Made by a program: the position numbers and the translations under genes | The notes under the pieces: model-generated | Told to the model about the DNA's origin: nothing | Databases searched by the model: none | What the model saw: the letters and a program-made list of their open reading frames with translations, nothing else | NCBI GenBank assembly: GCA_900766585.1 | Contig: CAAFVV010000030.1 | Location: 78,980 to 142,979 of the forward strand | Origin: Clostridia bacterium | GTDB taxonomy: Bacteria > Bacillota > Clostridia > Oscillospirales > Acutalibacteraceae | Direction: 5' to 3' | DNA: 64,000 nt | Shown here: positions 1,508-16,221 of the stretch, piece by piece | How the letters are laid out: every line of letters starts with the position of its first letter | How positions within the stretch are numbered: position 1 is the stretch's first letter

Positions 1508-2992
1508 TCACCAGCTCATGCGGATCTGTTTTCCGTCCTTTGTCTCGTGCGTAAAGCCGTTGAGCCTGCCAAACGTCAGGTACAGTGTGTCCTTTTCGCT
1601 CTCCGTCTCCTGCACATAGGTGGTCACAATACCGAGAAAGCCGCTCTTTTTCGCTGTATCGAGATCCATATGTGCGCAGACAAAATCACGCGGCACAAGG
1701 GACAGGAGGGTATCCCACTGCTCTTTTTTCTCCGACGCCTGATAGACGGTCTCCTCGTGCTTTAACGTATCGTTGTTCCATACGGAGCAGGTCAGCGTTT
1801 TCTTTTCGGGGTCGAGAATATAGGTGGTGTCCTCCGTAAAGCTCTGATAATCCATGGAGTCAAAGCGGAAGCTGTGGCGGCCGTTATCGGATTCATACAG
1901 GATATCCGCCAGCTCCGTCCCCTCTTTTTTCAGTCCGTCCGCATTTTCGAAAATATGGATGTTGACCCGCCCGCCGCCGGCGTTCAGCAGTTTTTTCAGC
2001 GGATCGGTCTCCTCGACCCCCTCGGAAGTCGCAAAGCCGGTGAGATCGGGCAGGGAGAAGCTGCTGTCGGTATAAAACACCGCGGTGATCTCCGTATTGC
2101 GCCCGTCCGACCGGTCGAGCGCGCGCAGCCGCGACCCGTCGCCATACAGCGCCAGCGTCACGGTGTCGCCGGACAGGATACGGGTGTCATACTGCGCGTT
2201 TGTGCCGGTCTCGCCGTCCGCCGCCGCTTTCGTCAGCGTCTGCATAAGCGCGGGGTAACCGATTCCGTCCAGCAACGGTTTGTATTTCTCATAGGTATCC
2301 GTGCCCTGCGGATAGACTGTTTTTGCCTTGAGGTTGATCAGCGCAGGGGTCTTGTCGATCTCTGCAAGATAATATCGGCCGGAAAGTCCCGTCCCGGCAT
2401 CGTAGCCGTCAAAGTCGAACGAAAACAGCGTCTTGCCGTCCTCCTGCCAGCGGCAGACCTCCGCCGTACCGCCATGCGATCTCAGCAAATGCGGCAAAAA
2501 GCCGTCCTTTCCCCTGTCGGTGATGATCATCCGCATACTGCCGCCCTGCCGATCCGCCGCAAGGATGGCATCGGTCAGCGCGGATACCGTCTCAGCTGAC
2601 GGCGTTTCGATCGTGCAGGGCGCCGTCACCGCGCGGACATAATCGCTGTAAAAATAATACCGCACGCCGACCAAAGCGCCGAGCACGAGCAGGACGAGGA
2701 TGACCGCCGCCACCCGGAAATTCCGCTTGATCTCCGAAGCGGAATGCACTCTGACACGGCCATCGTCATACCGGTCAATGATGCTTCCGTCCGGTCCGGA
2801 TGTGGAGGTATACCGGTCCTTTGCCGCATCGCGCTGCTGTCCCTCCCTGTCCCCAAACATCTTTTTTTCGTATTCCTTGCGCTGCTTATCGTGTATACTC
2901 TGGCATCGCGTGCAGTATTCTACGTTCGGACTGCCCGTTGTCCCGCCGCACCGCTTGCAGTACCCATATCTACGCCGATCACTCTCTGTCAT
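1508..2992 (-). CDS. hypothetical membrane protein with N-terminal cytoplasmic zinc ribbon (CxxC..CxxC), single TM and large extracytoplasmic domain
   Basis: CKRCGG...CTRCQ motif. Hydrophobic segment AAVILVLLVLGALVGV. No recognisable catalytic motifs in the ~370-aa C-terminal domain. Confidence 0.5.
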   Translation of the reverse strand: MTESDRRRYGYCKRCGGTTGSPNVEYCTRCQSIHDKQRKEYEKKMFGDREGQQRDAAKDRYTSTSGPDGSIIDRYDDGRVRVHSASEIKRNFRVAAVILVLLVLGALVGVRYYFYSDYVRAVTAPCTIETPSAETVSALTDAILAADRQGGSMRMIITDRGKDGFLPHLLRSHGGTAEVCRWQEDGKTLFSFDFDGYDAGTGLSGRYYLAEIDKTPALINLKAKTVYPQGTDTYEKYKPLLDGIGYPALMQTLTKAAADGETGTNAQYDTRILSGDTVTLALYGDGSRLRALDRSDGRNTEITAVFYTDSSFSLPDLTGFATSEGVEETDPLKKLLNAGGGRVNIHIFENADGLKKEGTELADILYESDNGRHSFRFDSMDYQSFTEDTTYILDPEKKTLTCSVWNNDTLKHEETVYQASEKKEQWDTLLSLVPRDFVCAHMDLDTAKKSGFLGIVTTYVQETESEKDTLYLTFGRLNGFTHETKDGKQIRMSW

Positions 2993-3127
2993 AAACCGCC
3001 CTTCCCTTTCTTTAACTAAACGAAAAGTTATAATTTAGTATACCATATTTTTATCCGGCACGGCAATGCACATTTCGTACGATTCCCCCTGCGGTCTTTT
3101 GTGCAATCTATCCCAACAAAATAGCAG

Positions 3128-3156
3128 TTGCGAAAACAGGGGAAATGTTGTATAAT
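3128..3156 (+). promoter_or_regulatory. sigma-A type promoter (TTGCGA-17-TATAAT) upstream of nifS
   Basis: Hexamers seen directly in sequence about 30 nt upstream of the AAGGAG RBS of nifS. Confidence 0.45.
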
Positions 3157-3185
3157 AGACTCCGTATATAAGGAGTTGACTGCAC

Positions 3186-4331
3186 GTGAAGGGGTTTCCC
3201 TACCATTATTTAGACAACAGCGCCACCACCAATGTCTGCCGCGAAGCGGCGGACAAGGCGGCCTATATGATGACCGAATGCTTCGGCAACCCGTCCTCAC
3301 TCCATTCGCTCGGCTTCGCCGCCGAACGGGAGCTGTCCGCCGCCCGCCGCGCCGTCGCCGCCCTGATCGGCGCCGAGCCGGAAACCGTCACGTTTACGTC
3401 CGGCGGCACGGAGGCGAACAATCTGGCGCTGCTCGGCTGTGCCGAAGCGATGAGTCGGCGGGGGCGGCATATCGTCACGACGGCGGTGGAGCATTCCTCT
3501 GTGTCCGAGCCACTTACCGTCCTTGAAAAACAGGGGTTTACCGTTACGCGGCTCACCCCCGGTCAAAACGGACTTGTCAGTCCCGGGCAGGTCGCTGCGG
3601 TCTGCCGCCCCGATACAATACTGGTCAGCATCATGCTGGTCAACAATGAGACCGGGGCGCGCTTTCCGATCGAGGAGATCGTTCCCGTCGTGCGCCGGCT
3701 CTCCCCGTTTGCTAAATTCCATACCGATGCCGTTCAGGCAGCGGGAAAGCTCCCGATCCGTTTGGACAAGCTGGGAGTCGATCTGCTGTCACTGAGCGGT
3801 CACAAGCTCCATGCACCGAAGGGCAGCGGCGTGTTATACCGCCGTTCCGGCTGCCGCCTGATCCCGCGCCTTTACGGCGGCGGACAGGAGTACGGGCTGC
3901 GCTCCGGCACAGAGGCGGTTCCCGCCTTTGCCGCGCTCGGCGCCGCCGTCGGTGCGCTGCCCGACCCCGCTGAATTTGAAGCGGAGACAAAAGCGCTGTC
4001 CGACCGATTGATCGCCGGTCTCGGCCGTATTCCCGGTGTTTCACTGCACCGCCCGGAATCCGCCGTGCCGTATATTGTCAGTCTGTCTGTTCCCGGTCTG
4101 CGCAGCGAAACGCTGCTGCACTTTCTGGCGCAGCGTGATGTCTATGTGTCCAGCGGATCTGCCTGCTCGAAGGGCAGACGCAGTCCCGTGCTGACCGCGA
4201 TGGGAATGTCTGCCGACGAGATCGACTCAGCGCTGCGCGTCAGCCTGTCCCGCTATAACGATGAATCCGATATCGACGCCCTGCTTGAGGGACTTTCCGA
4301 GGCGACTGCCGCATTGGCGCGCCGCAAATAA
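3186..4331 (+). CDS. nifS: cysteine desulfurase (NifS/IscS family, class V aminotransferase)
   Basis: PLP-lysine motif SGHKLHAPKGSGVLY. C-terminal SGSACS active-site Cys loop. GTG start with AAGGAG RBS. Classic partner of thiI. Confidence 0.85.
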   Translation: MKGFPYHYLDNSATTNVCREAADKAAYMMTECFGNPSSLHSLGFAAERELSAARRAVAALIGAEPETVTFTSGGTEANNLALLGCAEAMSRRGRHIVTTAVEHSSVSEPLTVLEKQGFTVTRLTPGQNGLVSPGQVAAVCRPDTILVSIMLVNNETGARFPIEEIVPVVRRLSPFAKFHTDAVQAAGKLPIRLDKLGVDLLSLSGHKLHAPKGSGVLYRRSGCRLIPRLYGGGQEYGLRSGTEAVPAFAALGAAVGALPDPAEFEAETKALSDRLIAGLGRIPGVSLHRPESAVPYIVSLSVPGLRSETLLHFLAQRDVYVSSGSACSKGRRSPVLTAMGMSADEIDSALRVSLSRYNDESDIDALLEGLSEATAALARRK

Positions 4332-7197: not shown

Positions 7198-10100
7198 TTG
7201 CTGCGTATCCTGCATATTTCCGTCGGCGGCGTTTCGCCGGACACAGCTGCGGTATGGGAAAGGGTGTTTTTGCCCTATGGTGAATCCGTCTCCGCGTCTC
7301 TTTCCGCAACGGACGAATCCTCTTTGCGCAAGCTGCTGTGTACCGACGCCAAGGGCTGTGATCTGGTGCTGCTGACCGGCGACGCTGCCTGCTGCCGCAA
7401 AGCGGTGCTGTCGCTGACCGGACCGGACGCCGTCATCCCTCTCGCCCTGACCCGCCGCATTGCCGGCTGGATGTTCCGGCAGCCCGGAAGGCTTTGGGTC
7501 TGGCTTCCCGACGGCGCCGAAAAGCAGATAGCACTGTTATCGGAATGCGTTCTGCCGCTGCTGCCCGAAAAGCATATGATCGTGCATACCGTCGGGATCT
7601 ACGGCCTCGCTCCCGAAGTAATTCAGGAAAGGCTGGCACCTTTTCTGTCCAGGACCTCTCCGGCGTGCTGTCTGTATCGGATAGATGCCGAGTGGCGGCT
7701 TCGTCTGGTTGCCCCCTGCGGTGAGGAAAGCGGGATGGAGTGTACACTCGCCGCAATCCGCAAGCAGCTCGGGGCCTATCTCTACGGGACAGACTGCCCC
7801 GACCTCTTCGGACGCGTGCAGGAATTACTGGGACTCAGAGCGCTCACCGCCGCCGTCACCGGTCTCCCGCCTATGGCCGGCCGTAAAAGTGGCGGTATCA
7901 ATTTTATTTCTGAGGATATCCCCGTCGAGCAGCCGGCAGAGCCTGGCGCTGACGCTGGAACCGACGGGCAAAACGAACCGGATCCGACCCCGTATGCGGC
8001 ACTGCGGGCTAAAGAAACCGGAAATGCCGCACTCGGTCTCTCCCTGCGGCAGGATACTTCCGCCTCGCGGCCGACCGTGCGCCTGTCTCTGACAGACGGA
8101 AGACGCCTTTGGAACAAAACGCTGACCGGCGACGATGCCGATACACTGACAGCCGAAGCGGAAAGTGCGCTCTGGGATTTGGCGCGCCGTTATCTGGAGG
8201 CGTTTCCTCTGGTCATGGCGGGCGGCGAACCGGTCGTACTCCCCGAAAAAGCGACCGATATCCCCGTTTCTCCGCTGGAAAAAGAGCAGCCGATACTTCT
8301 CCGCCCCGTGAAACGCACCTCCGAGCGCGCTTTTCGCGTTATCCTCGTCTGTATGCTGGCGGTCGTTTTGTGTCTGTCCGCCGGATTGTTCACCTATTTC
8401 CGGTTTTTCAACCGTACGCCGATCAACGCATTCCGTGATCTGGAGGCACTGTATCGGACCAATGTTTCAGCCAATGATTCAGACGAATATCCCAAGGATA
8501 TGCTGCCGCAGTTTTATTCGCTGTACAAGGAAAATGCGGATATTGCGGGGTGGATCCGGCTGGACAACAAAACGCAGAGCTATCCCGTGATGAACGGGCT
8601 GGGATCGGTTGACTACGGTTCCAGCGATTTTGCCGGGCAGCCCTCCTCCTATGGCGTCCCCTTTTTCTTTCCCGCAACGCCGCGGGCGGATAAAAACGAC
8701 TGCCTAATTATCTATGGAAACCACATGACGGATAACACCATGTTTTCCTGTCTTTTAAACTATTTGGACAACTCCTATGCGCGTTCTCACGCCCAAATAG
8801 AAATGACCACGGTATACCGCACAGGCACATGGCAGGTATTCGCGGCACTGACAGTGGATGAAAACGAGAGCGACCTGAATTTTACCCGCACGGCATTTAC
8901 CGGCGAGGCAGACCGATTGCAGTTTGTCCGCGAGCTGACAAGCCGGTCAAAGCTGACTATCACCTCAGAAGAGGTGGAAAACGAACATGAGCTTTTGCTG
9001 CTGACCACCACGCTCTCCTCCGATCCCAAGGATACCAGGCGTGTCGTTGTTGCCTTTTACCGTATAGACGGCACCAGCTCTTCCTCCACGGTCAATGTCA
9101 CGAAAAGCGCCGAGTCACAGCCCGATAACACCGTATCGGATATCCCCTCGTCTGATGACGCTTCTTCGAATGTTTCGCCGGATGTCTCCTCCGAGGACAG
9201 CCGCCCGCCCAAGCCGGATGAGGATACGTCTGAGGACGGCGGAACGGACTTTATCGAGCCGTCTGACGATGAGGACAGCCAGCCCCAGACCACAACCTCA
9301 AAGACCGCTGTTACCACGACGTCGACCAAGGCTGTAAAGCCGACCGCCTTTCCCTCCACATCGGCGGCGGAAACAGAGTCCGGCACGGCATCCGCAACAT
9401 CTGCTTCAAATACCGACACTCCGACCAGTGCGACGCTGTCCACTACGTCCGTTTCCGGCAAGACAACGACCTCCACGACCGCTAAGCCGTCGGATACTTA
9501 TGTGCCGATTCGCGAGGGTACAATCGACGAGAGCGAATACTATCCCCTGTTCCGGCTGAAAAACAGCGCCACCGAAAAGATCTTTACGCCGACGACACGG
9601 GAGGAGCTGACCCTCGGTCTGTTTTACATAGTGAAAATGGAGATGGGCTCCGCTTCGCTGATGAAAAAATCCACTGAAGCGCAAAAGGCACAGGCGGTCG
9701 CTTCCTACACCTTTGTTTTGTATTACTGTCAGAACAGCGGCAAGCCGTATGAATTCAAGTTTCCGACGTATGACCCCAACAATGCCAACGACCGCAAGAT
9801 CTATTCCGCGGTAGCGGCTGTGGCGGGAACCAAGATGATCTATCCGGAGAAGGCGCTCAAATCCCAAGCCATCAACGCCATGTACTGCGCCTCCTCTGCC
9901 GGCGTCACCTCGAGCTGCCATATGGTCTTTACGGCGAAGCTCCCCTATCTGGTCAGCGTGAAGAGCCAGTACGATACCGATGCCTATCTGAAATCGGTAA
10001 ACGGCAGCAGCATTACCGCCGAGTTTACCGTCAAGTACAGCAACCTGTTGTCGGCGATCGGTCAGTCTTTGGATCTGGCACAGTCGGAGATCTACGCCGA

Positions 10101-10467
10101 AAAGGGTGCGGTTCCGCTGTTCGCCAAAACATGGGACGGCGGTGAGAACGGCTATGTCTATCAGACAAATCTGTATTACTACAAAAACGGTAAAAAGACC
10201 TATATCACCGGCAAACAGATCCGCAACAGTGTCAACAAGCACACCTCTGCTTCCATGCGCTCCCACGCATTTACCGTTACCGCCTATGACAGCAAGACGG
10301 ATATCATGACCATTCAGACGCGCGGACACGGACACGGGCTGGGGCTTTCGCAATACGGCGCGGTGGGTTATGCCAACGAGGCAGGATGGACATATGACCG
10401 GATTCTTGCCCACTATTATTCGATCACGGAAACCACGCCCTATCAGCTCGTTGCCCCGAAATTTTAA
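7198..10467 (+). CDS. multidomain membrane protein: degenerate CinA-like N-domain + TM + pseudo-sortase B domain (Cys lost) + Ser/Thr/Asp-rich linker + SpoIID/LytB domain
   Basis: TTG start with GGAGG RBS. TM VILVCMLAVVLCLSAGLFTYF. Sortase-like ADIAGWIRLDNKTQSYPVMNG..IIYGNHMTD..ELLLLTTTLSSDPKDTRRVVVAFYRI, i.e. TLSTC replaced by TTLSS. C-terminal SpoIID motifs EAQKAQAVASYTFVLYY and TRGHGHGLGLSQYGAVGYANEAGWTYDRILAHYY. Confidence 0.7.
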   Translation: MLRILHISVGGVSPDTAAVWERVFLPYGESVSASLSATDESSLRKLLCTDAKGCDLVLLTGDAACCRKAVLSLTGPDAVIPLALTRRIAGWMFRQPGRLWVWLPDGAEKQIALLSECVLPLLPEKHMIVHTVGIYGLAPEVIQERLAPFLSRTSPACCLYRIDAEWRLRLVAPCGEESGMECTLAAIRKQLGAYLYGTDCPDLFGRVQELLGLRALTAAVTGLPPMAGRKSGGINFISEDIPVEQPAEPGADAGTDGQNEPDPTPYAALRAKETGNAALGLSLRQDTSASRPTVRLSLTDGRRLWNKTLTGDDADTLTAEAESALWDLARRYLEAFPLVMAGGEPVVLPEKATDIPVSPLEKEQPILLRPVKRTSERAFRVILVCMLAVVLCLSAGLFTYFRFFNRTPINAFRDLEALYRTNVSANDSDEYPKDMLPQFYSLYKENADIAGWIRLDNKTQSYPVMNGLGSVDYGSSDFAGQPSSYGVPFFFPATPRADKNDCLIIYGNHMTDNTMFSCLLNYLDNSYARSHAQIEMTTVYRTGTWQVFAALTVDENESDLNFTRTAFTGEADRLQFVRELTSRSKLTITSEEVENEHELLLLTTTLSSDPKDTRRVVVAFYRIDGTSSSSTVNVTKSAESQPDNTVSDIPSSDDASSNVSPDVSSEDSRPPKPDEDTSEDGGTDFIEPSDDEDSQPQTTTSKTAVTTTSTKAVKPTAFPSTSAAETESGTASATSASNTDTPTSATLSTTSVSGKTTTSTTAKPSDTYVPIREGTIDESEYYPLFRLKNSATEKIFTPTTREELTLGLFYIVKMEMGSASLMKKSTEAQKAQAVASYTFVLYYCQNSGKPYEFKFPTYDPNNANDRKIYSAVAAVAGTKMIYPEKALKSQAINAMYCASSAGVTSSCHMVFTAKLPYLVSVKSQYDTDAYLKSVNGSSITAEFTVKYSNLLSAIGQSLDLAQSEIYAEKGAVPLFAKTWDGGENGYVYQTNLYYYKNGKKTYITGKQIRNSVNKHTSASMRSHAFTVTAYDSKTDIMTIQTRGHGHGLGLSQYGAVGYANEAGWTYDRILAHYYSITETTPYQLVAPKF

Positions 10468-10504
10468 TGCAGTGCATCTGTAAAGCTGTATATCTTTACG
10501 CAGG

Positions 10505-10535
10505 AAAAGCCACCCGATTTTCTCGGGTGGCTTTT
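10505..10535 (+). terminator. Rho-independent terminator after the large sortase-like/SpoIID gene
   Basis: gccacccga-ttttc-tcgggtggc perfect 9-bp stem followed by TTTT. Confidence 0.55.
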
Positions 10536-10569
10536 CGGATGGACGATACCAGAGGATTTTCGCCGCGTC

Positions 10570-11133
10570 ATGACGGAATTCGCGGAATTTTCTCCGCATA
10601 TTGTCGCGTTGGATATCTCCCTGCCGTTTTTCGACGGCTACCACTGGTGCAGCGAGATCCGCAAGGTGTCCAAGGTGCCCATCCTATTTATCTCCTCCGC
10701 CGCTGATACTATGAATATGGTCATGGCAATGAATCTCGGCGCAGACGATTTTATCGCCAAGCCCTTTGATCAGAGCGTGCTGATGGCAAAAATACAGGCC
10801 ATGCTCCGCCGCACCTACGATTTTGCCTCTGCCGTACCGGTGATCGAGCACCGCGGCGCTCTGCTGAACACCGCGGAATACACACTGACCTACGGCGATG
10901 AAAAAATCCCCCTTTCCAAAAACGAATACCGTATTTTGTCGCTCCTGATGCAGAATAAAGGCAGCGTGATGAGCCGTGAACGCTTGATGCAGCAGCTTTG
11001 GGAGAGCGACAGCTTTGTGGACGAAAATACGCTGTCGGTCAATGTCAACCGGCTGCGCAAGCGGCTGGACAGCATCGGGCTGCACGATTTTATTACCACT
11101 AAATTCGGTGTCGGCTATCTTATTGAGGACTGA
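10570..11133 (+). CDS. OmpR/BceR-family response regulator, N-terminally truncated receiver domain (probable remnant or pseudogene)
   Basis: Begins just before the phosphoacceptor Asp (HIVALDISLP). Retains K-box region and intact winged-helix DNA-binding domain. About 50 N-terminal residues (acidic Mg pocket) are absent in every frame upstream; that space is occupied by the preceding gene's terminator. Confidence 0.6.
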   Translation: MTEFAEFSPHIVALDISLPFFDGYHWCSEIRKVSKVPILFISSAADTMNMVMAMNLGADDFIAKPFDQSVLMAKIQAMLRRTYDFASAVPVIEHRGALLNTAEYTLTYGDEKIPLSKNEYRILSLLMQNKGSVMSRERLMQQLWESDSFVDENTLSVNVNRLRKRLDSIGLHDFITTKFGVGYLIED

Positions 11134-11136
11134 TAT

Positions 11137-12123
11137 ATGAAACAATTGGCAACCTATATTAAGCAGAAATGGTGTGTTCTTGCGGTCTTTCTGCTGTTTT
11201 TCCTGATTTTTTGGCTCTCATTTACCCTTTATCACCTGCCTGTTGAGGCTGTGGTCTATCCTATGCTCCTCTGTCTCGTGTTGGGCTGCGGATTTTTAAT
11301 CGGCGGGTATCTCCGCGCGCGGAAACGGCACGCACTGCTCTGCCGTATCCGCACAATGGCGGATGCCGGGGAAGCGGAATTCCCCTCGGCGGATACTGCG
11401 GCAGAAGCGGATTACCGGCAGATCATCCGTCTGCTCTGCGAGGAGCAGCGCGTCTATCGCACCGAGCAGAGCAGGCGCTATGCCGACATGATCGACTACT
11501 TTACCGTTTGGGCACATCAGATCAAAACGCCGATCGCTTCCATGCGGCTGCATCTGCAAAATGAGGATTCCGCCCTGTCGCGCGCCCTGTCTGCCGATCT
11601 GTTCCGCGTGGAGCAATATGCGGAGATGGTGCTGACCTTCCTGCGGCTCGACAGCGCGAGCACCGACTATGTGTTCCGCGAATATGATCTGGATACTATT
11701 GTTCGGCAGGCAGTCAAAAAATTTGCCGGGGAATTTATTCGCCGCAAGCTGACACTTGTCTATGAACCGCTGCATGACACCGTGATCACCGATGAAAAAT
11801 GGCTCTCTTTTGTGATCGAACAGGTTCTGTCCAATGCGCTCAAATATACGAGAAGCGGAAGCATCACGATCACAGAGGAGCAGGGAAAGCGGCTGTGTAT
11901 CCGCGACACGGGGATCGGGATCGCGCCGGAGGATCTGCCGCGCATTTTCGAAAACGGGTTTACAGGCTATAACGGCCGTGCCGACCGGAGAGCGAGCGGC
12001 ATTGGTCTGTATCTGTGCAAGCGCATCTGCACGCAGCTTGGGCATACCATTACCGCCGAATCCGCCGTGGATGTCGGCACGACAATTACCATCGACCTGT
12101 TCAAATACCGCAGCGAGACGTGA
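11137..12123 (+). CDS. sensor histidine kinase, intramembrane-sensing BceS-like (2 TM, HisKA + HATPase_c)
   Basis: Two N-terminal TM helices with almost no extracellular loop. H-box HQIKTPIASMRLHL. N/G boxes SNALKYT, DTGIGI, GIGLYLCKRI. Confidence 0.85.
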   Translation: MKQLATYIKQKWCVLAVFLLFFLIFWLSFTLYHLPVEAVVYPMLLCLVLGCGFLIGGYLRARKRHALLCRIRTMADAGEAEFPSADTAAEADYRQIIRLLCEEQRVYRTEQSRRYADMIDYFTVWAHQIKTPIASMRLHLQNEDSALSRALSADLFRVEQYAEMVLTFLRLDSASTDYVFREYDLDTIVRQAVKKFAGEFIRRKLTLVYEPLHDTVITDEKWLSFVIEQVLSNALKYTRSGSITITEEQGKRLCIRDTGIGIAPEDLPRIFENGFTGYNGRADRRASGIGLYLCKRICTQLGHTITAESAVDVGTTITIDLFKYRSET

Positions 12124-12179
12124 GCTTCTTACAAAACTGTTAGATTTTCCGGGGGATTTGTAAGCCGATCCTATGGCGA

Positions 12180-12203
12180 TACAGATCCCCTTTTGGTATA
12201 CTA
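12180..12203 (+). promoter_or_regulatory. candidate extended -10 promoter (TGgTATACT) upstream of the bceA-like gene
   Basis: TGGTATACT about 30 nt upstream of the AAGGAGG RBS. Weak -35. Region where a BceR-type regulator would normally bind. Confidence 0.35.
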
Positions 12204-12234: not shown

Positions 12235-12999
12235 ATGAGTATGCTATCGGTAAACGGTGTACAGAAAATTTACACCACCCGTTTCGGCGGGAACCGCGTG
12301 GAGGCGCTGAAAAATGTGACATTTGACGTAGAGGCCGGAGAATACGTCGCCATCATGGGCGAGTCCGGCTCGGGCAAAACAACGCTTCTGAATATTTTAG
12401 CCGCGCTGGATAAGCCCACATCCGGCTCTGTTCTGTTAGACGGCAGCGATCTGTCCAAGATCAAGGAGGCACAGGCTGCCGCCTTCCGGCGGGATAATTT
12501 AGGCTTTGTCTTTCAGGATTTTAACCTTTTGGACACCTTTACGCTGGAGGACAATATCTACCTGCCGCTCGTGCTGGCGGGAAAGCCGTATGCGGAGATG
12601 CACCGGCGATTAGTCCCCATCGCCGATCAGCTCGAGATCAGCTCGCTGCTGAAAAAATACCCCTATGAGGTCTCGGGCGGTCAAAAACAGCGTGCGGCGG
12701 TCGCCCGGGCATTGATCACCGGTCCGAAACTGATCCTGGCAGACGAGCCGACCGGCGCGCTGGATTCCCGCTCTACCGATGAGCTTTTGCGCCTGTTTTC
12801 GGAGATCCACAAAACCGGTCAGACGATTCTGATGGTCACGCACTCCGTCAAAGCTGCAAGCCATGCGTCGCGTGTGCTGTTTATCAAGGACGGCGAGGTA
12901 TTTCACCAGATCTATCGCGGCGACAGCACCGATTCGCAGCTGTATCAGAAGATCACCGACACCCTGACCATGCTGACGACAGGCGGTGATACCGAATGA
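12235..12999 (+). CDS. ABC transporter ATP-binding protein, BceA-like (peptide antibiotic resistance)
   Basis: GESGSGKTTLLNIL Walker A. LSGGQKQRAAVARAL signature. ILADEPTGALD Walker B. Overlaps the downstream permease start (ATGA). Confidence 0.9.
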   Translation: MSMLSVNGVQKIYTTRFGGNRVEALKNVTFDVEAGEYVAIMGESGSGKTTLLNILAALDKPTSGSVLLDGSDLSKIKEAQAAAFRRDNLGFVFQDFNLLDTFTLEDNIYLPLVLAGKPYAEMHRRLVPIADQLEISSLLKKYPYEVSGGQKQRAAVARALITGPKLILADEPTGALDSRSTDELLRLFSEIHKTGQTILMVTHSVKAASHASRVLFIKDGEVFHQIYRGDSTDSQLYQKITDTLTMLTTGGDTE

Positions 13000-15029
13000 A
13001 GCTGAGTTTTTTCCCGAAGCTCGCGCTTGACGGCATCCGCAAAAACCGACGGCTGTTCCTCCCCTATATCCTCAGCGGCGCCGTGTTGGTCACCATGACC
13101 TATATTCTGTTTTTCCTCGCCTCTTCGGAGATGCTCGAGCATATGAAGGGCGGCGGCGTGCTCGGCTACATGCTGCCGATCGGCATTGTGGTCGTCAGCG
13201 TGTTTGCCGTGATCTTTATGTTTTACACCAACTCGTTCATTATCCGTCAGCGGTACCGCGAATTCGGTCTGTATAACGTGCTCGGCATGGATAAGCACAA
13301 TCTCGGACGCCTGATGCTGTGGGAAAACCTGATCGCCGCCTGCCTTGCCATCGGACCGGGGCTGCTCGCCGGCATTCTCCTCTCCAAATTTGCCGAGCTA
13401 GGTATGGTGAACCTGCTGCAGGAAACGGTCAACTATACGCTGTATATTGATTTCGGCTCGGTCGGCAGGACGGCGCTGCTGTTTCTCGGTATTTTTGCCC
13501 TTTTGCTGATCAATTCCGTGGTCAAGGTCAGAAAAAGCGATCCGCTTGAGCTGCTCCGCAGTGAAAATGTGGGCGAAAAGGCGCCGAAGGCGAATTGGAT
13601 CACGACCGGCCTCGGCATTATCCTGCTCGGCGCCGCCTACTATATCGCCCTGTCGATCAAGCACCCCTTAGAGGCACTTTTCTGGTTTATGATTGCGGTG
13701 ATCCTGGTCATCATCGCCACCTATCTGCTGTTTATATCCGGGTCTGTCGCACTTTGCCGTCTGCTGCAGAAAAACAAGGCGTATTACTATAAGCCCAACC
13801 ACTTTGTCTCTGTTTCGTCGATGACCTACCGCATGAAACGCAACGGCGCGGGACTTGCCTCCATCTGCGTGCTGATCACGATTGTTCTGGTCATGCTGTC
13901 CTCGACCATCAGCCTGTATTCCGGTGCCGAGGTAACGCTGAGGGAAAATTATCCGCAGGACATAGCGCTCGGCGTCACGCTTCCAGACATGGAGCATTTT
14001 AATGAAGGATCCTTTTCCGCCATGCGCCGCACCGTTTCCGATCTGGTCGACGACCAGATCGATGTCCACGAGTCGCACGCCATAGAGCTGGCGGGATTGC
14101 TGACCGGCGATCAGTTTTTGGCTGATCAGCAGGCGCATTCCACTCTGGATCTCTCCGTTTTGCAAAACCTGTGCTATCTGCATATCCTGTCACAGGATGA
14201 CTATACCCGTCTGACCGGGGAAACGCTCACGCTCGCCGGCGATGAGTGTCTGATCTCCTGCTACCGCACTTCATTTTCAGCCGACCGCATAGAGATAGAG
14301 GGATGTGCGGCGCTGAAAGTGAAGGGCGAAGCAGTGAAAATCCAGCTGCCGACTTATCTGATGCAGCAGATCGTTCCCTGCGTCACCTTAGTTGTGCGGG
14401 ACGCCGTCGCCCTGACAAAGCCGCTGCAAAACATGCAGAATAACGTCGGTGATTCGGTCTTAGAGCCGAAATGGTATTATAGCTTTGATGTATCCGGCGG
14501 AGCCGAGGCGGAAATGGCGGCGTATACGGCGATCAAGAAAAATATGGATAAGATCGTTATTCCCAACGAGAACGGCGGATATTCCTATCAATTAGGCTGC
14601 CGTGAAAGCGACCGACAGGGATTTTACGCGCTGTACGGTGCGCTGTTCTTCATCGGTATTCTTCTCAGCGTGGTTTTCATTTTTGCCGCCGTGCTGATCA
14701 TCTACTATAAACAAATTTCAGAGGGGTATGAGGATCAGAAGCGTTTTTCTGTCATGCAGAAGGTCGGCATGACCAAGGCGGAGATCCGCCGTTCCGTCAA
14801 TTCTCAGGTGCTGACCGTGTTTTTCCTCCCCCTTCTCCTTTCCGGCGTTCATCTCGCCTTTGCTTTCCCGATCATCTGGAAGTTGCTTCAGCTGTTCATG
14901 TTCCGCAATGTCCACTTTATGATCGGCGTCACCGCCGCTATCTTTGCGGTATTTGCGTTGATCTATGCGCTGGTGTATAAGGTGACGTCAAATGCCTACT
15001 GCGCCATTGTCAGCGGGAAAAAGGAATGA
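12996..15029 (+). CDS. ABC transporter permease, FtsX-family BceB-like (10 TM, large extracellular loop)
   Basis: 677 aa. N-terminal KLALDGIRKNRRLFLPYILS typical of BceB. Two FtsX-like 4-TM bundles flanking a ~200-aa loop. Confidence 0.85.
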   Translation: MKLSFFPKLALDGIRKNRRLFLPYILSGAVLVTMTYILFFLASSEMLEHMKGGGVLGYMLPIGIVVVSVFAVIFMFYTNSFIIRQRYREFGLYNVLGMDKHNLGRLMLWENLIAACLAIGPGLLAGILLSKFAELGMVNLLQETVNYTLYIDFGSVGRTALLFLGIFALLLINSVVKVRKSDPLELLRSENVGEKAPKANWITTGLGIILLGAAYYIALSIKHPLEALFWFMIAVILVIIATYLLFISGSVALCRLLQKNKAYYYKPNHFVSVSSMTYRMKRNGAGLASICVLITIVLVMLSSTISLYSGAEVTLRENYPQDIALGVTLPDMEHFNEGSFSAMRRTVSDLVDDQIDVHESHAIELAGLLTGDQFLADQQAHSTLDLSVLQNLCYLHILSQDDYTRLTGETLTLAGDECLISCYRTSFSADRIEIEGCAALKVKGEAVKIQLPTYLMQQIVPCVTLVVRDAVALTKPLQNMQNNVGDSVLEPKWYYSFDVSGGAEAEMAAYTAIKKNMDKIVIPNENGGYSYQLGCRESDRQGFYALYGALFFIGILLSVVFIFAAVLIIYYKQISEGYEDQKRFSVMQKVGMTKAEIRRSVNSQVLTVFFLPLLLSGVHLAFAFPIIWKLLQLFMFRNVHFMIGVTAAIFAVFALIYALVYKVTSNAYCAIVSGKKE

Positions 15030-15078: not shown

Positions 15079-16221
15079 TTATTCTCCGCCGAATGCGCGC
15101 TTGATCTTATCGCGGAATGACCGGCGCTTCTGATAGTTCCGGTCCTCTGTCGCCCCTTCAAACGCAGACAGCAGCTGCTTTTGCTCGGCAGACAGATTTT
15201 TCGGCACCTCAACCACCACGCGCACCAGCTCATCACCGCAGCCGCGGCTGTTGAGATACGGAAAGCCTTTGCCCTTGAGCGTCAGAATATCTCCGGGCTG
15301 TGTGCCCTCCTTGATTGTAAACTTCACATTGCCGTCCAGTGTCGGAATGGACACCTCGTCACCGAGCGCCACCTGGGCGAAGGTCAGCGGCAGATCAAAC
15401 CAGATGTTGAAGCCATCCCGCTCAAACAGCGGATGCGGACGCACCGACACCTGCACCTGCAGATCGCCGGCAGGACCGCCGTTGCTGCCTGCATTGCCGC
15501 GTCCGCGGATGGACAGCACCTGCCCGTCGTCGATACCAGCCGGAATATTGATGCCGACCTGCACGCTCCTGCGGACGTGCCCCGTGCCGCCGCAGCCCTT
15601 ACAGGGCGTCTCGATGATCTTCCCGCGTCCGCGGCAGCGGGAACAGACCACCTGGGTCTGTATCACACCAAATGGCGTTCTCTGCTGGCGGCGTTCCTGT
15701 CCCGTGCCGTTACAGACCGGGCAGATCTTGGGTGCCGTTCCCTTGGCGGCGCCGCTGCCGCCGCAATCGGGACAGCTGTCGACCAGCGTGACCGACACCT
15801 GTTTTTTGCACCCCTTGGCGGACTCTTCAAAGGAGATGACCACCGAGGCGGTCGCATCGCTTCCGCGACGGGGAGCATTCGGGTCGGAACGGCGTCCGCC
15901 GCCGCCGAAAAACGAGGAGAAAATGTCGCCGATATCGCCGAGGTCGATATCGTCAAAACCCCCGCCGCCATAGCCGCCCGCACCGAAGTTCGGGTCAACG
16001 CCGGCGTGACCATACTGGTCATAGCGTGCCTTCTTTTCGGGATTGGAAAGCACCTCATAGGCCTCGTTGACCTCTTTGAAGTGTATCTCCGCGTCTTTGT
16101 CACCCGGATTCAGATCCGGGTGATACTTTTTCGCCATCTGGCGGTATGCCTTTTTGATCTCATCCTCAGACGCTCCCTTTGAAACGCCCAGAACCTCATA
16201 AAAATCTCGTTTATCTGCCAT
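15079..16221 (-). CDS. dnaJ: molecular chaperone DnaJ
   Basis: J-domain with HPD (KKYHPDLNP). Gly-rich linker. Four CxxCxGxG zinc-finger repeats. Confidence 0.95.

What the first reader, a model, noticed from the sequence alone, without database searches (positions are those of the whole stretch)
10467..11133. BceRS-BceAB-type module whose response regulator has lost its N-terminal ~50 residues
The downstream genes are a textbook intramembrane-sensing HK (11137..12123), a BceA-like ATPase and a 10-TM BceB-like permease. The OmpR-family regulator begins only ~14 residues before the phosphoacceptor Asp (HIVALDISLP). It lacks the beta1-alpha1 acidic pocket and shows no RR-like sequence in any upstream frame. 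Instead the terminator hairpin of the preceding 1089-aa gene occupies that space. This looks like a deletion or insertion scar that orphaned the kinase and ABC transporter from phosphorylation-dependent control. The bceA-like gene retains only an extended -10 promoter (12180..12203).
Basis: seen in the sequence. Interest (0 to 1): 0.6.

Follow-up and report, generated by a model that had tools for sequence, protein, structure and literature searches.

The report
Strain-specific deletion truncating a BceR-like regulator
One strain of an uncultured gut-type Clostridia bacterium has lost 108 bases covering the ribosome-binding site, start codon and first 31 codons of the regulator that switches on a peptide-antibiotic resistance pump; sister strains carry the intact gene, so this is an ordinary, recent loss-of-function mutation.

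Summary
The OmpR-family regulator ORF (10570..11133, 187 aa) matches only positions 39-111 of the Pfam receiver profile. It lacks beta1-alpha1-beta2 and the acidic Mg2+ pocket but keeps the phospho-acceptor Asp.

The cause is now exact. Three independent metagenome contigs of the same species (97.4-99.8% DNA identity, same gene order) carry a 224-aa regulator. Relative to them the window lacks exactly 108 bp between 10551 and 10552: AAGGAGGAAAATCGC, the ATG and codons 2-31. L084 and L085 are identical to the window across the ~250 nt spanning the junction (L001 shows a few substitutions).

The terminator hairpin upstream is native, not inserted. The kinase and ATPase proteins are identical to those of intact strains, and no other gene in 21 kb is disrupted. 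The bceA-like promoter is not decayed. It has the family-typical regulator box plus a conserved hairpin and a -10 element.

Most likely the regulator is null, because no usable Shine-Dalgarno remains and two core strands are gone. The pump would then be uninducible in this strain. A phosphorylation-independent truncated activator cannot be excluded but has no support.

The finding is ordinary: a recent strain-level pseudogenisation in a well-known module type. Low interest.

The parts
7198..10467 (+). Upstream 1089-aa gene. It is context only and has the same neighbour and orientation in intact strains.
   Evidence: ORF list. The same 1089-aa gene precedes the 224-aa regulator in L084 and L085.
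10504..10536 (+). Native terminator-like hairpin of the upstream gene: GC-rich core GCCACCCGA/TCGGGTGGC, loop TTTTC, then TTTT. It is present in both deleted and intact alleles.
   Evidence: RNA fold shows a 14-bp stem, with region z = -3.4. Alignments with L084, L085 and L001.
10551..10552 (+). Deletion junction. 108 bp present in conspecific strains is missing between these two bases: AAGGAGGAAAATCGC + ATG + codons 2-31.
   Evidence: blastn and MAFFT against L001, L084 and L085. L084 and L085 are identical to the window across the aligned ~250 nt around the junction.
10552..10569 (+). Remnant codons 32-37 (EDFRRV) of the regulator, now upstream of the first start codon. GAGGA at 10552-10556 is the only Shine-Dalgarno-like motif, and its GAGG core lies 14 nt from the ATG.
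   Evidence: Translation, alignment A1, SD scan.
10570..11133 (+). Truncated BceR/NsrR-like OmpR-family regulator ORF, 187 aa, starting at Met38 of the 224-aa protein. It has half of alpha2, beta3 with Asp52, alpha3 to alpha5, and a complete winged-helix domain.
   Evidence: Pfam, homologue alignment, PDB match to NsrR 5DCL with E 1.5e-53 for the intact allele.
11137..12123 (+). BceS-like intramembrane-sensing histidine kinase, intact. The protein is identical to that of strains with the intact regulator.
   Evidence: Pfam HATPase_c, BceS 8G3A E 2.4e-31 over residues 10-320, exact-protein matches on 7 contigs, 0 SNPs versus L084.
12129..12164 (+). Regulator binding region of the bceA-like promoter: main box TTACAAAACTGTTAG (12129-12143) and second half-site TTTGTAAG (12157-12164).
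   Evidence: Fits the core of the published Bce-type consensus AnnTTACnAnnnnGTnAG (PMC10858260). Found in relaxed form in 57 of 66 upstream regions, 40 in the strict form.
12151..12191 (+). Conserved hairpin followed by a T-run, between the regulator box and the -10. Probably the terminator of the regulator-kinase transcript embedded in the promoter.
   Evidence: RNAalifold on 37 species: 8 of 15 pairs show compensatory changes. 93.7% of cells are paired versus 58% or less when slid, and 46 compensatory cells versus 13.6 in shuffles.
12194..12202 (+). Extended -10 (TGgTATACT) of the bceA-like promoter, with no -35, as in related species.
   Evidence: Sequence. TATAAT-like hexamer conserved at this position across species.
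12235..12999 (+). BceA-like ABC ATPase, intact. The protein is identical to that of strains with the intact regulator.
   Evidence: Pfam ABC_tran E 3.6e-36, exact-protein matches on 6 contigs.
12996..15029 (+). BceB/PsdB-like permease, 677 aa, with two FtsX regions. Intact.
   Evidence: Pfam FtsX in two stretches, PsdB 9UGG E 5.5e-38 and BceB 7TCG E 1e-31. A 677-aa gene in L084 as well.

Best explanation
The window carries a recent, strain-specific 108-bp deletion at the 5' end of the response-regulator gene of a Bce-type (BceRS-BceAB-like) peptide-antibiotic sensing and detoxification module.

What is shown: the deletion removes the Shine-Dalgarno sequence, the start codon and codons 2-31. 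These codons encode beta1, alpha1 and beta2, including the Glu8/Asp9 acidic pocket that binds Mg2+ for phosphotransfer. The junction lies at an imperfect 5-bp repeat (AAGGA in the old SD, GAGGA at codons 32-33), which points to an illegitimate or slippage-type deletion.

What is inferred: the remaining ORF starts at Met38 and has no adequately placed ribosome-binding site. Any product would lack two of the five core strands, so the regulator is effectively null. The BceS-like kinase may still be made from its own GAGG motif, though it has lost translational coupling, and it has no phosphorylatable partner. The bceAB-like operon sits behind an activator-dependent promoter (regulator box, no -35) and a terminator-like hairpin that blocks read-through. 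It can therefore no longer be induced, and this strain should be more sensitive to the cognate peptide antibiotic than its sisters.

The deletion, its extent and the intactness of everything else are shown. The loss of expression and of induction are inferred.
For: - Receiver profile covered only from position 39.
- Every close homologue but three among the 120 best hits is at least 221 aa, nearly all 224-225, and starts MYRLLIVEDD.
- Conspecific contigs L001 (97.4% identity), L084/L082 (98.6-99.1% over 21 kb, identical gene order thiI-1089aa-RR-HK-ABC-permease-dnaJ-dnaK) and L085 (98.5-99.8%) all contain the extra 108 bp. L084 and L085 are identical to the window across the aligned region around the junction.
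- In the 90%-identity cluster the listed 224-aa members sit on about 36 contigs, against 2 contigs for the 187-aa form.
- Over 21 kb, window versus L084 shows 220 SNPs. The only other indels are three 1-bp intergenic ones and 9-bp and 3-bp in-frame ones in dnaJ, so no other gene is broken and the assembly looks clean.
- The remnant regulator has 2 SNPs and the kinase 0, so the event is recent.
- SD: the intact allele has AGGAGG (6/6) at spacing 8. The truncated ORF has at best a 4/6 match, with its GAGG core 14 nt from the ATG. In about 70 related loci, good SDs sit 4-9 nt (RR) or 7-11 nt (ABC) from the start.
- In NsrR, the closest solved homologue, the acidic pocket is Glu12/Asp13 and the phosphorylation site is Asp55 (PMC4773095). 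These align to Glu8/Asp9 (deleted) and Asp52 (kept).
- The bceA promoter has the Bce-type box and no -35. A covarying hairpin plus T-run lies between the kinase gene and the -10.
Against: - No expression or phenotype data exist.
- The remnant ORF is still open and undecayed, and a GAGGA motif was left 13 nt upstream of Met38, so weak translation cannot be excluded.
- PhoB's isolated DNA-binding domain can activate transcription without phosphorylation (PMC3264566), so a truncated regulator need not be null in principle.
- Only 64 kb of the genome is visible. A paralogous BceR-like regulator elsewhere could cross-activate the promoter, and such cross-regulation is documented in Lacticaseibacillus (PMC10858260).
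- Reads could not be inspected, so a minority-variant or assembly origin is not formally excluded.
Confidence: 0.78

Rival explanations
1. The truncated regulator is translated from Met38 and acts as a phosphorylation-independent, possibly constitutive, activator of the bceAB-like operon. Loss of the inhibitory N-terminal part of the receiver would free the winged-helix domain. The deletion would then be adaptive, giving constitutive resistance.
For: - The ORF from Met38 is intact, with only 2 SNPs relative to the intact allele.
- GAGGA lies 13 nt upstream of the ATG.
- The PhoB DNA-binding domain alone activates transcription (PMC3264566).
- A second, independent truncation in a relative with 81% identity (L087) has its breakpoint within 3 nt of this one. 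Its Met38 ATG overlaps the stop of the upstream ORF (ATGA), an arrangement typical of translational coupling.
Against: - The SD match is only 4/6, with its GAGG core 14 nt from the ATG, outside the range used by about 70 related loci.
- The product would keep about 80 residues of a receiver lacking beta1 and beta2, which is likely misfolded rather than cleanly removed.
- KdpE and OmpR DNA-binding domains alone do not activate (PMC3264566).
- OmpR-family activators normally need receiver-mediated dimerisation to bind two half-sites.
- The allele is seen on only 2 contigs, against about 36 for the intact form, with no sign of spread.
- The chance that two breakpoints fall within 3 nt in a 111-nt target is roughly 6%, which is not compelling.
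Confidence: 0.08
2. The deletion is not fixed in a real strain. It is an assembly artefact or a minority variant captured by the assembler, and the organism actually has the intact 224-aa regulator.
For: - The source appears to be a metagenome-derived genome. All close relatives are MAG or metagenome contigs, named at best 'Clostridia bacterium'.
- The 187-aa form is on record for only 2 contigs, possibly the same assembly deposited in NCBI and ENA.
Against: - No repeat of k-mer length flanks the deletion that could collapse in assembly. The junction has only a 4-of-5-base similarity.
- The surrounding 21 kb shows no frameshifts or other disruptive indels relative to a sister strain.
- A clean 108-bp loss with sequence identical to the sister strains around it is what a genuine deletion looks like.
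Confidence: 0.07
3. The regulator is null, but the module is still controlled. A paralogous BceR-like regulator encoded outside the window accepts phosphate from this kinase or its own, and activates the conserved box at 12129-12143.
For: - Cross-regulation between paralogous Bce-type regulators with near-identical boxes is documented (PMC10858260).
- The kinase, transporter and promoter box remain perfectly intact.
Against: - No second regulator or kinase of this type lies in the 64-kb window.
- The intactness of the other parts is equally explained by the deletion being very recent.
Confidence: 0.07

Closest known systems
BceRS-BceAB of Bacillus subtilis, with the related PsdRSAB and NsrRK modules (Bce-type peptide-antibiotic sensing and detoxification modules)
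   Same: - Four-gene layout: regulator, kinase, ATPase, permease.
- The kinase has two TM helices and a loop of about 6 residues, and its best solved match is BceS (8G3A).
- The permease has two FtsX regions and best matches PsdB and BceB.
- The intact allele of the regulator best matches NsrR (5DCL).
- The transporter promoter carries the Bce-type box TTACnAnnnnGTnAG.
   Different: - In this strain the regulator gene has lost its SD, start codon and first 31 codons.
- The promoter also contains a covarying hairpin plus T-run between the box and the -10. I did not find this described in the papers I read.
- The host is an uncultured Clostridia lineage rather than Bacilli.
Engineered receiver-less OmpR/PhoB-family regulators (PhoB, OmpR and KdpE DNA-binding domains expressed alone)
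   Same: The winged-helix output domain is retained while phosphorylation control is lost.
   Different: Those constructs remove the whole receiver cleanly. Here only beta1-alpha1-beta2 and half of alpha2 are gone, leaving a fragment of about 80 residues that probably cannot fold. Outcomes for the clean constructs also differ: PhoB is active, OmpR and KdpE are inactive (PMC3264566).
Atypical or pseudo-receiver response regulators (for example ChxR; PMC3960148, PMC12632262)
   Same: OmpR-family regulators that cannot use canonical Asp phosphorylation.
   Different: Pseudo-receivers keep the complete (beta-alpha)5 fold and are conserved across lineages. This one lacks two strands and is a single-strain allele whose sister strains have a canonical receiver.

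Membership tests
Bce-type module (BceRS-BceAB-like) | BceB-type permease with two FtsX regions and a large extracellular domain, next to a BceA-type ATPase | tested here: met
   Pfam FtsX in two stretches and ABC_tran E 3.6e-36. Best PDB matches are PsdB 9UGG (5.5e-38) and BceB 7TCG (1e-31). The number of TM helices was not counted.
Bce-type module (BceRS-BceAB-like) | Intramembrane-sensing histidine kinase: two N-terminal TM helices, a minimal extracellular loop and no sensor domain | tested here: met
   The sequence shows two hydrophobic helices (about residues 12-31 and 39-58) separated by about 6 residues. Best PDB match is BceS 8G3A over residues 10-320, E 2.4e-31. HATPase_c is present.
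Bce-type module (BceRS-BceAB-like) | Cognate OmpR-family regulator with a complete, phosphorylatable receiver | tested here: not met
   In the window the receiver profile is covered only from position 39, and the acidic pocket (Glu8/Asp9) is deleted. The feature is met in the conspecific loci L001, L084 and L085.
Bce-type module (BceRS-BceAB-like) | Bce-type regulator box upstream of the transporter operon | tested here: met
   TTACAAAACTGTTAG at 12129-12143 fits the core TTACnAnnnnGTnAG of the consensus AnnTTACnAnnnnGTnAG quoted in PMC10858260; the leading A of that consensus is not matched. The box is found in relaxed form in 57 of 66 upstream regions, 40 in the strict form.
Bce-type module (BceRS-BceAB-like) | Induction by, and resistance to, a peptide antibiotic through transporter-dependent sensing | not testable with these tools
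   Requires culture or heterologous expression.
Functional OmpR/PhoB-family response regulator | Complete (beta-alpha)5 receiver with an acidic pocket, phospho-acceptor Asp and conserved Lys | tested here: not met
   beta1-alpha1-beta2 and the acidic pocket are absent. Asp52 and the rest are retained (residue roles from PMC4773095).
Functional OmpR/PhoB-family response regulator | C-terminal winged-helix DNA-binding domain | tested here: met
   Trans_reg_C E 2e-23, profile positions 2-76 of 77.
Pseudo-receiver or atypical response regulator | Full receiver fold retained, catalytic residues replaced, and the form conserved among relatives | tested here: not met
   The fold is truncated rather than substituted. 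Sister strains and about 70 related species have canonical full-length receivers.

The most novel reading that the evidence does not exclude
N-terminal truncation of BceR-like regulators at codons 31-32 is a recurrent, selected event. The Met38-initiated fragment, translated by leaky initiation here and by ATGA-coupled translation in L087, would bind the conserved box without phosphorylation and make the BceAB-like pump constitutive. That would be a natural one-step route to peptide-antibiotic resistance in gut Clostridia.
Probability: 0.06. Interest if true: 0.55.

Novelty: new member of a known kind. Interest (0 to 1): 0.15.

Why it matters
The value is mostly practical. It shows that a truncated regulator in this genome is a genuine, datable strain-level lesion (108 bp, exact breakpoints) and not a new regulator architecture. 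Annotators should mark it as a pseudogene or disrupted gene.

If the strain could be cultured, it and its intact sisters would form a natural isogenic-like pair for testing what the Bce-type module does in gut Clostridia.

The side observation may be of more general use to people studying Bce-type modules. The transporter promoter in this large family combines a regulator box with a covarying terminator-like hairpin.

Tried and rejected
- **Hidden N-terminus.** I looked for it in other frames and elsewhere in the window. No frame has it, and the 108 bp gives only chance matches of 10-17 nt. The best match lies inside priA.
- **Insertion or terminator displacement.** Rejected, because the hairpin and its flanks are identical in intact alleles.
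- **Identifying the species.** A ThiI search gave only 'Clostridia/Clostridiales bacterium' names.
- **Independent copies of the deletion allele.** The exact-protein look-up was not on record. Two JGI metagenome scans, one with the left flank and one with the coding flank, found nothing. The species seems absent from that collection.
- **Promoter for the regulator-kinase operon.** The consensus scan found none in 10300-11100. There are only 16 nt between the hairpin and the old SD, so transcription probably comes from read-through or a weak site upstream. This is unresolved but is the same in intact strains.
- **AlphaFold on the truncated protein.** Considered but not run. With a homologue alignment it would reproduce the native partial fold regardless of stability and would not discriminate between the hypotheses.
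- An exact GAGGA/GAGGA slip would delete 105 bp, not 108. The observed junction has no exact microhomology, only AAGGA versus GAGGA.
Full report
**What is in the window.** The region holds four co-directional genes:
- a regulator ORF (10570..11133, 187 aa);
- a histidine kinase (11137..12123, 328 aa);
- an ABC ATPase (12235..12999, 254 aa);
- a 677-aa permease (12996..15029).

Pfam finds a complete Trans_reg_C domain in the regulator. The Response_reg match covers only profile positions 39-111 of 111, starting at residue 5. The kinase has HATPase_c, the ATPase has ABC_tran, and the permease has two FtsX stretches.

Against solved structures, the kinase is closest to BceS (8G3A, E 2.4e-31, residues 10-320). 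The permease is closest to PsdB (9UGG, 5.5e-38) and BceB (7TCG, 1e-31). The full-length form of the regulator is closest to the lantibiotic-resistance regulator NsrR (5DCL, 1.5e-53).

**The truncation is real.** Translating all three frames upstream of 10570 shows regulator-like sequence only back to EDFRRV (10552-10569). Before that the frame runs through the hairpin to the stop of the preceding gene. No ATG, GTG or TTG start exists upstream of 10570 in that frame. Homologues are 224-225 aa and start MYRLLIVEDD. The ORF begins at Met38 of the full-length protein, and the phospho-acceptor Asp52 (HIVALD) is its residue 15.

**What happened.** The nearest homologue, P0001 (98% identity, 224 aa), lies on an ENA metagenome contig (L001). 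That contig matches the window at 97.4% DNA identity on both sides of a gap: L001 1-1736 aligns to window 8822-10556, and 1840-3190 aligns to 10552-11902.

Exact-sequence look-ups with the window's own kinase and ATPase proteins found them on other contigs. These are L084/L082 (a 141-kb ENA contig) and L085 (Logan). There they follow a 224-aa regulator in the same gene order: thiI, 1089-aa gene, regulator, kinase, ATPase, permease, dnaJ, dnaK. These contigs are 98.5-99.8% identical to the window.

The four-way alignment is unambiguous. Intact alleles read ...GGACGATACCA[AAGGAGGAAAATCGC ATG TAC ... TGT GTC]GAGGATTTTCGCC..., and the window lacks exactly the 108 bracketed bases. L084 and L085 are identical to the window across the aligned region on both sides of the junction.

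The lost segment comprises the Shine-Dalgarno sequence, its 8-nt spacer, the ATG and codons 2-31. The junction has no exact microhomology. It does sit at an imperfect repeat, AAGGA on the left and GAGGA on the right, which is consistent with slippage or illegitimate recombination. The 108 bp is not found elsewhere in the window.

- The hairpin at 10504-10536 (14-bp stem) is present at the same distance from the upstream stop codon in all intact alleles. It was not moved or inserted.
- The loss is 37 residues, not about 50.
- The bceA-like promoter is not a decayed remnant (see the promoter section below).

**Is it an artefact?** Reads are not available. However, the 21 kb shared with L084 differs by 220 substitutions. 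Apart from the 108-bp gap, the only indels are three 1-bp intergenic ones and 9-bp and 3-bp in-frame ones in the Gly-rich part of dnaJ. There are no frameshifts, and no repeat long enough to mislead an assembler flanks the junction. I regard a genuine deletion as about 90% likely.

The allele is rare. In the 90%-identity protein cluster, the listed 224-aa members account for about 36 contigs and the 187-aa form for 2. Across about 75 species-level loci recovered with the kinase, the adjacent regulator is full length in all but a few. L060 has a frameshift and L058 has no regulator.

The remnant regulator shows 2 substitutions relative to L084 and the kinase none, so the event is recent and no secondary decay has occurred.

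**Consequences (inferred).** In NsrR the acidic pocket is Glu12/Asp13, the phosphorylation site is Asp55 and the conserved lysine is Lys104 (PMC4773095). In the alignment the first three correspond to Glu8/Asp9 (deleted) and Asp52 (retained). Any product would lack beta1, alpha1, beta2 and half of alpha2. That removes two of the five strands of the central sheet and the metal site needed for phosphotransfer.

Translation is also compromised. The intact allele has AGGAGG 8 nt from the ATG. The truncated ORF has at best a 4/6 match, with its GAGG core 14 nt away. Good SDs in about 70 related loci lie 4-9 nt (regulator) or 7-11 nt (ATPase) from the start.

My best explanation (confidence about 0.78) is that the regulator is null. 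The kinase has its own GAGG 8 nt upstream of its ATG, but it has lost translational coupling and has no partner. The transporter operon can no longer be induced.

**The target promoter.** The 111-bp kinase-ATPase spacer contains, in order:
- TTACAAAACTGTTAG (12129-12143), which fits the core of the published Bce-type consensus AnnTTACnAnnnnGTnAG (PMC10858260);
- a second half-site TTTGTAAG (12157-12164);
- a hairpin (12151-12161 paired with 12181-12191);
- a T-run;
- an extended -10, TGgTATACT (12194-12202);
- an AAGGAGG SD.

This layout recurs in the related species. The relaxed form of the box is found in 57 of 66 upstream regions and the strict TTACnAnnnnGTnAG form in 40. The hairpin covaries. 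Eight of 15 pairs show compensatory changes in 37 species, 93.7% of cells are paired against 58% or less when the partner is slid, and there are 46 compensatory cells against 13.6 in shuffles.

Frequent G-U pairs on the + strand argue for an RNA structure. It is most simply a terminator for the regulator-kinase transcript embedded in the activator-dependent promoter. That arrangement would prevent read-through from rescuing transporter expression in the deletion strain.

**Alternatives.** The most interesting rival is that the Met38 fragment is made and activates without phosphorylation. The isolated PhoB DNA-binding domain does this, but those of OmpR and KdpE do not (PMC3264566).

One curiosity favours this rival slightly. 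A homologue with 81% identity on contig L087 is also truncated, with its breakpoint at codon 31, within 3 nt of this one. It is fused behind an unrelated 98-aa ORF whose stop overlaps the Met38 ATG (ATGA). With a 111-nt target, the chance of such proximity is roughly 6%, and each allele is a singleton, so I give this reading under 10%.

Other disrupted relatives exist, such as L088 with a TGA at codon 3. This fits ordinary sporadic loss.

Cross-regulation by a paralogue outside the window cannot be examined. The window itself has no second regulator or kinase of this type.

**Comparison and verdict.** The locus is a Bce-type module in an uncultured Clostridia lineage. ThiI relatives are named only 'Clostridia/Clostridiales bacterium'. 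This strain fails one defining feature, a complete cognate regulator, because of a 108-bp deletion that its sister strains lack.

It is not a new regulator architecture, a pseudo-receiver or an insertion scar. It is a recent, probably inactivating strain polymorphism of a kind expected in any large set of genomes. Interest is low (0.15). The conserved box-plus-hairpin promoter noticed on the way is the more reusable result.

Noticed in passing
window 12129-12202; same region in L004-L081: The bceA-like promoter of this module family has a fixed layout across dozens of species: a Bce-type box, a second half-site, a covarying hairpin followed by a T-run exactly where a -35 would be, then an extended -10. 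G-U pairs on the sense strand suggest an RNA terminator for the regulator-kinase transcript embedded inside the activator-dependent promoter.
   Followed up: yes
L087:7040-7100 (ENA ERZ27302833 k141_1242246): A regulator with 81% identity is independently truncated at codon 31, within 3 nt of the window's breakpoint. It is joined to the 3' end of an unrelated 98-aa membrane-like ORF whose stop overlaps the Met38 ATG (ATGA). This could be coincidence or a preferred breakpoint.
   Followed up: partly
L088:477-490; L060:1603-2270: Other sporadic lesions occur in the same regulator family. L088 has a TGA nonsense codon at codon 3 (NCBI GCA_965322345.1 contig), and L060 has a frameshift that splits the regulator into two reading frames.
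   Followed up: partly
window 10513-10527 versus L001:1696-1709: The loop of the terminator hairpin after the 1089-aa gene is reverse-complemented between strains (GATTTTCTC in the window, L084 and L085; GAGAAAAATC in L001). The stem is unchanged, so this is a small hairpin-loop inversion.
   Followed up: no
window 7198-10467: The 1089-aa upstream protein has no significant Pfam domain, only sub-threshold Sortase (residues 487-618) and CinA_KH (131-197) hits. It has a long Ser/Thr/Asp/Pro-rich low-complexity stretch, and to my eye its C-terminal part (GHGHGLGLSQYGA) resembles SpoIID/LytB. It is conserved at 1089 aa in sister strains.
   Followed up: no
window 15926-15960 (dnaJ, minus strand): Sister strains differ by in-frame 9-bp and 3-bp indels in the Gly-rich region of DnaJ. 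Apart from the 108-bp deletion, these are the only coding indels in 21 kb.
   Followed up: no
window 10465-10572: The stop codon of the 1089-aa gene and the regulator remnant are in the same reading frame, with no further stop between them. Stop-codon read-through would therefore fuse the two. This is probably meaningless.
   Followed up: no
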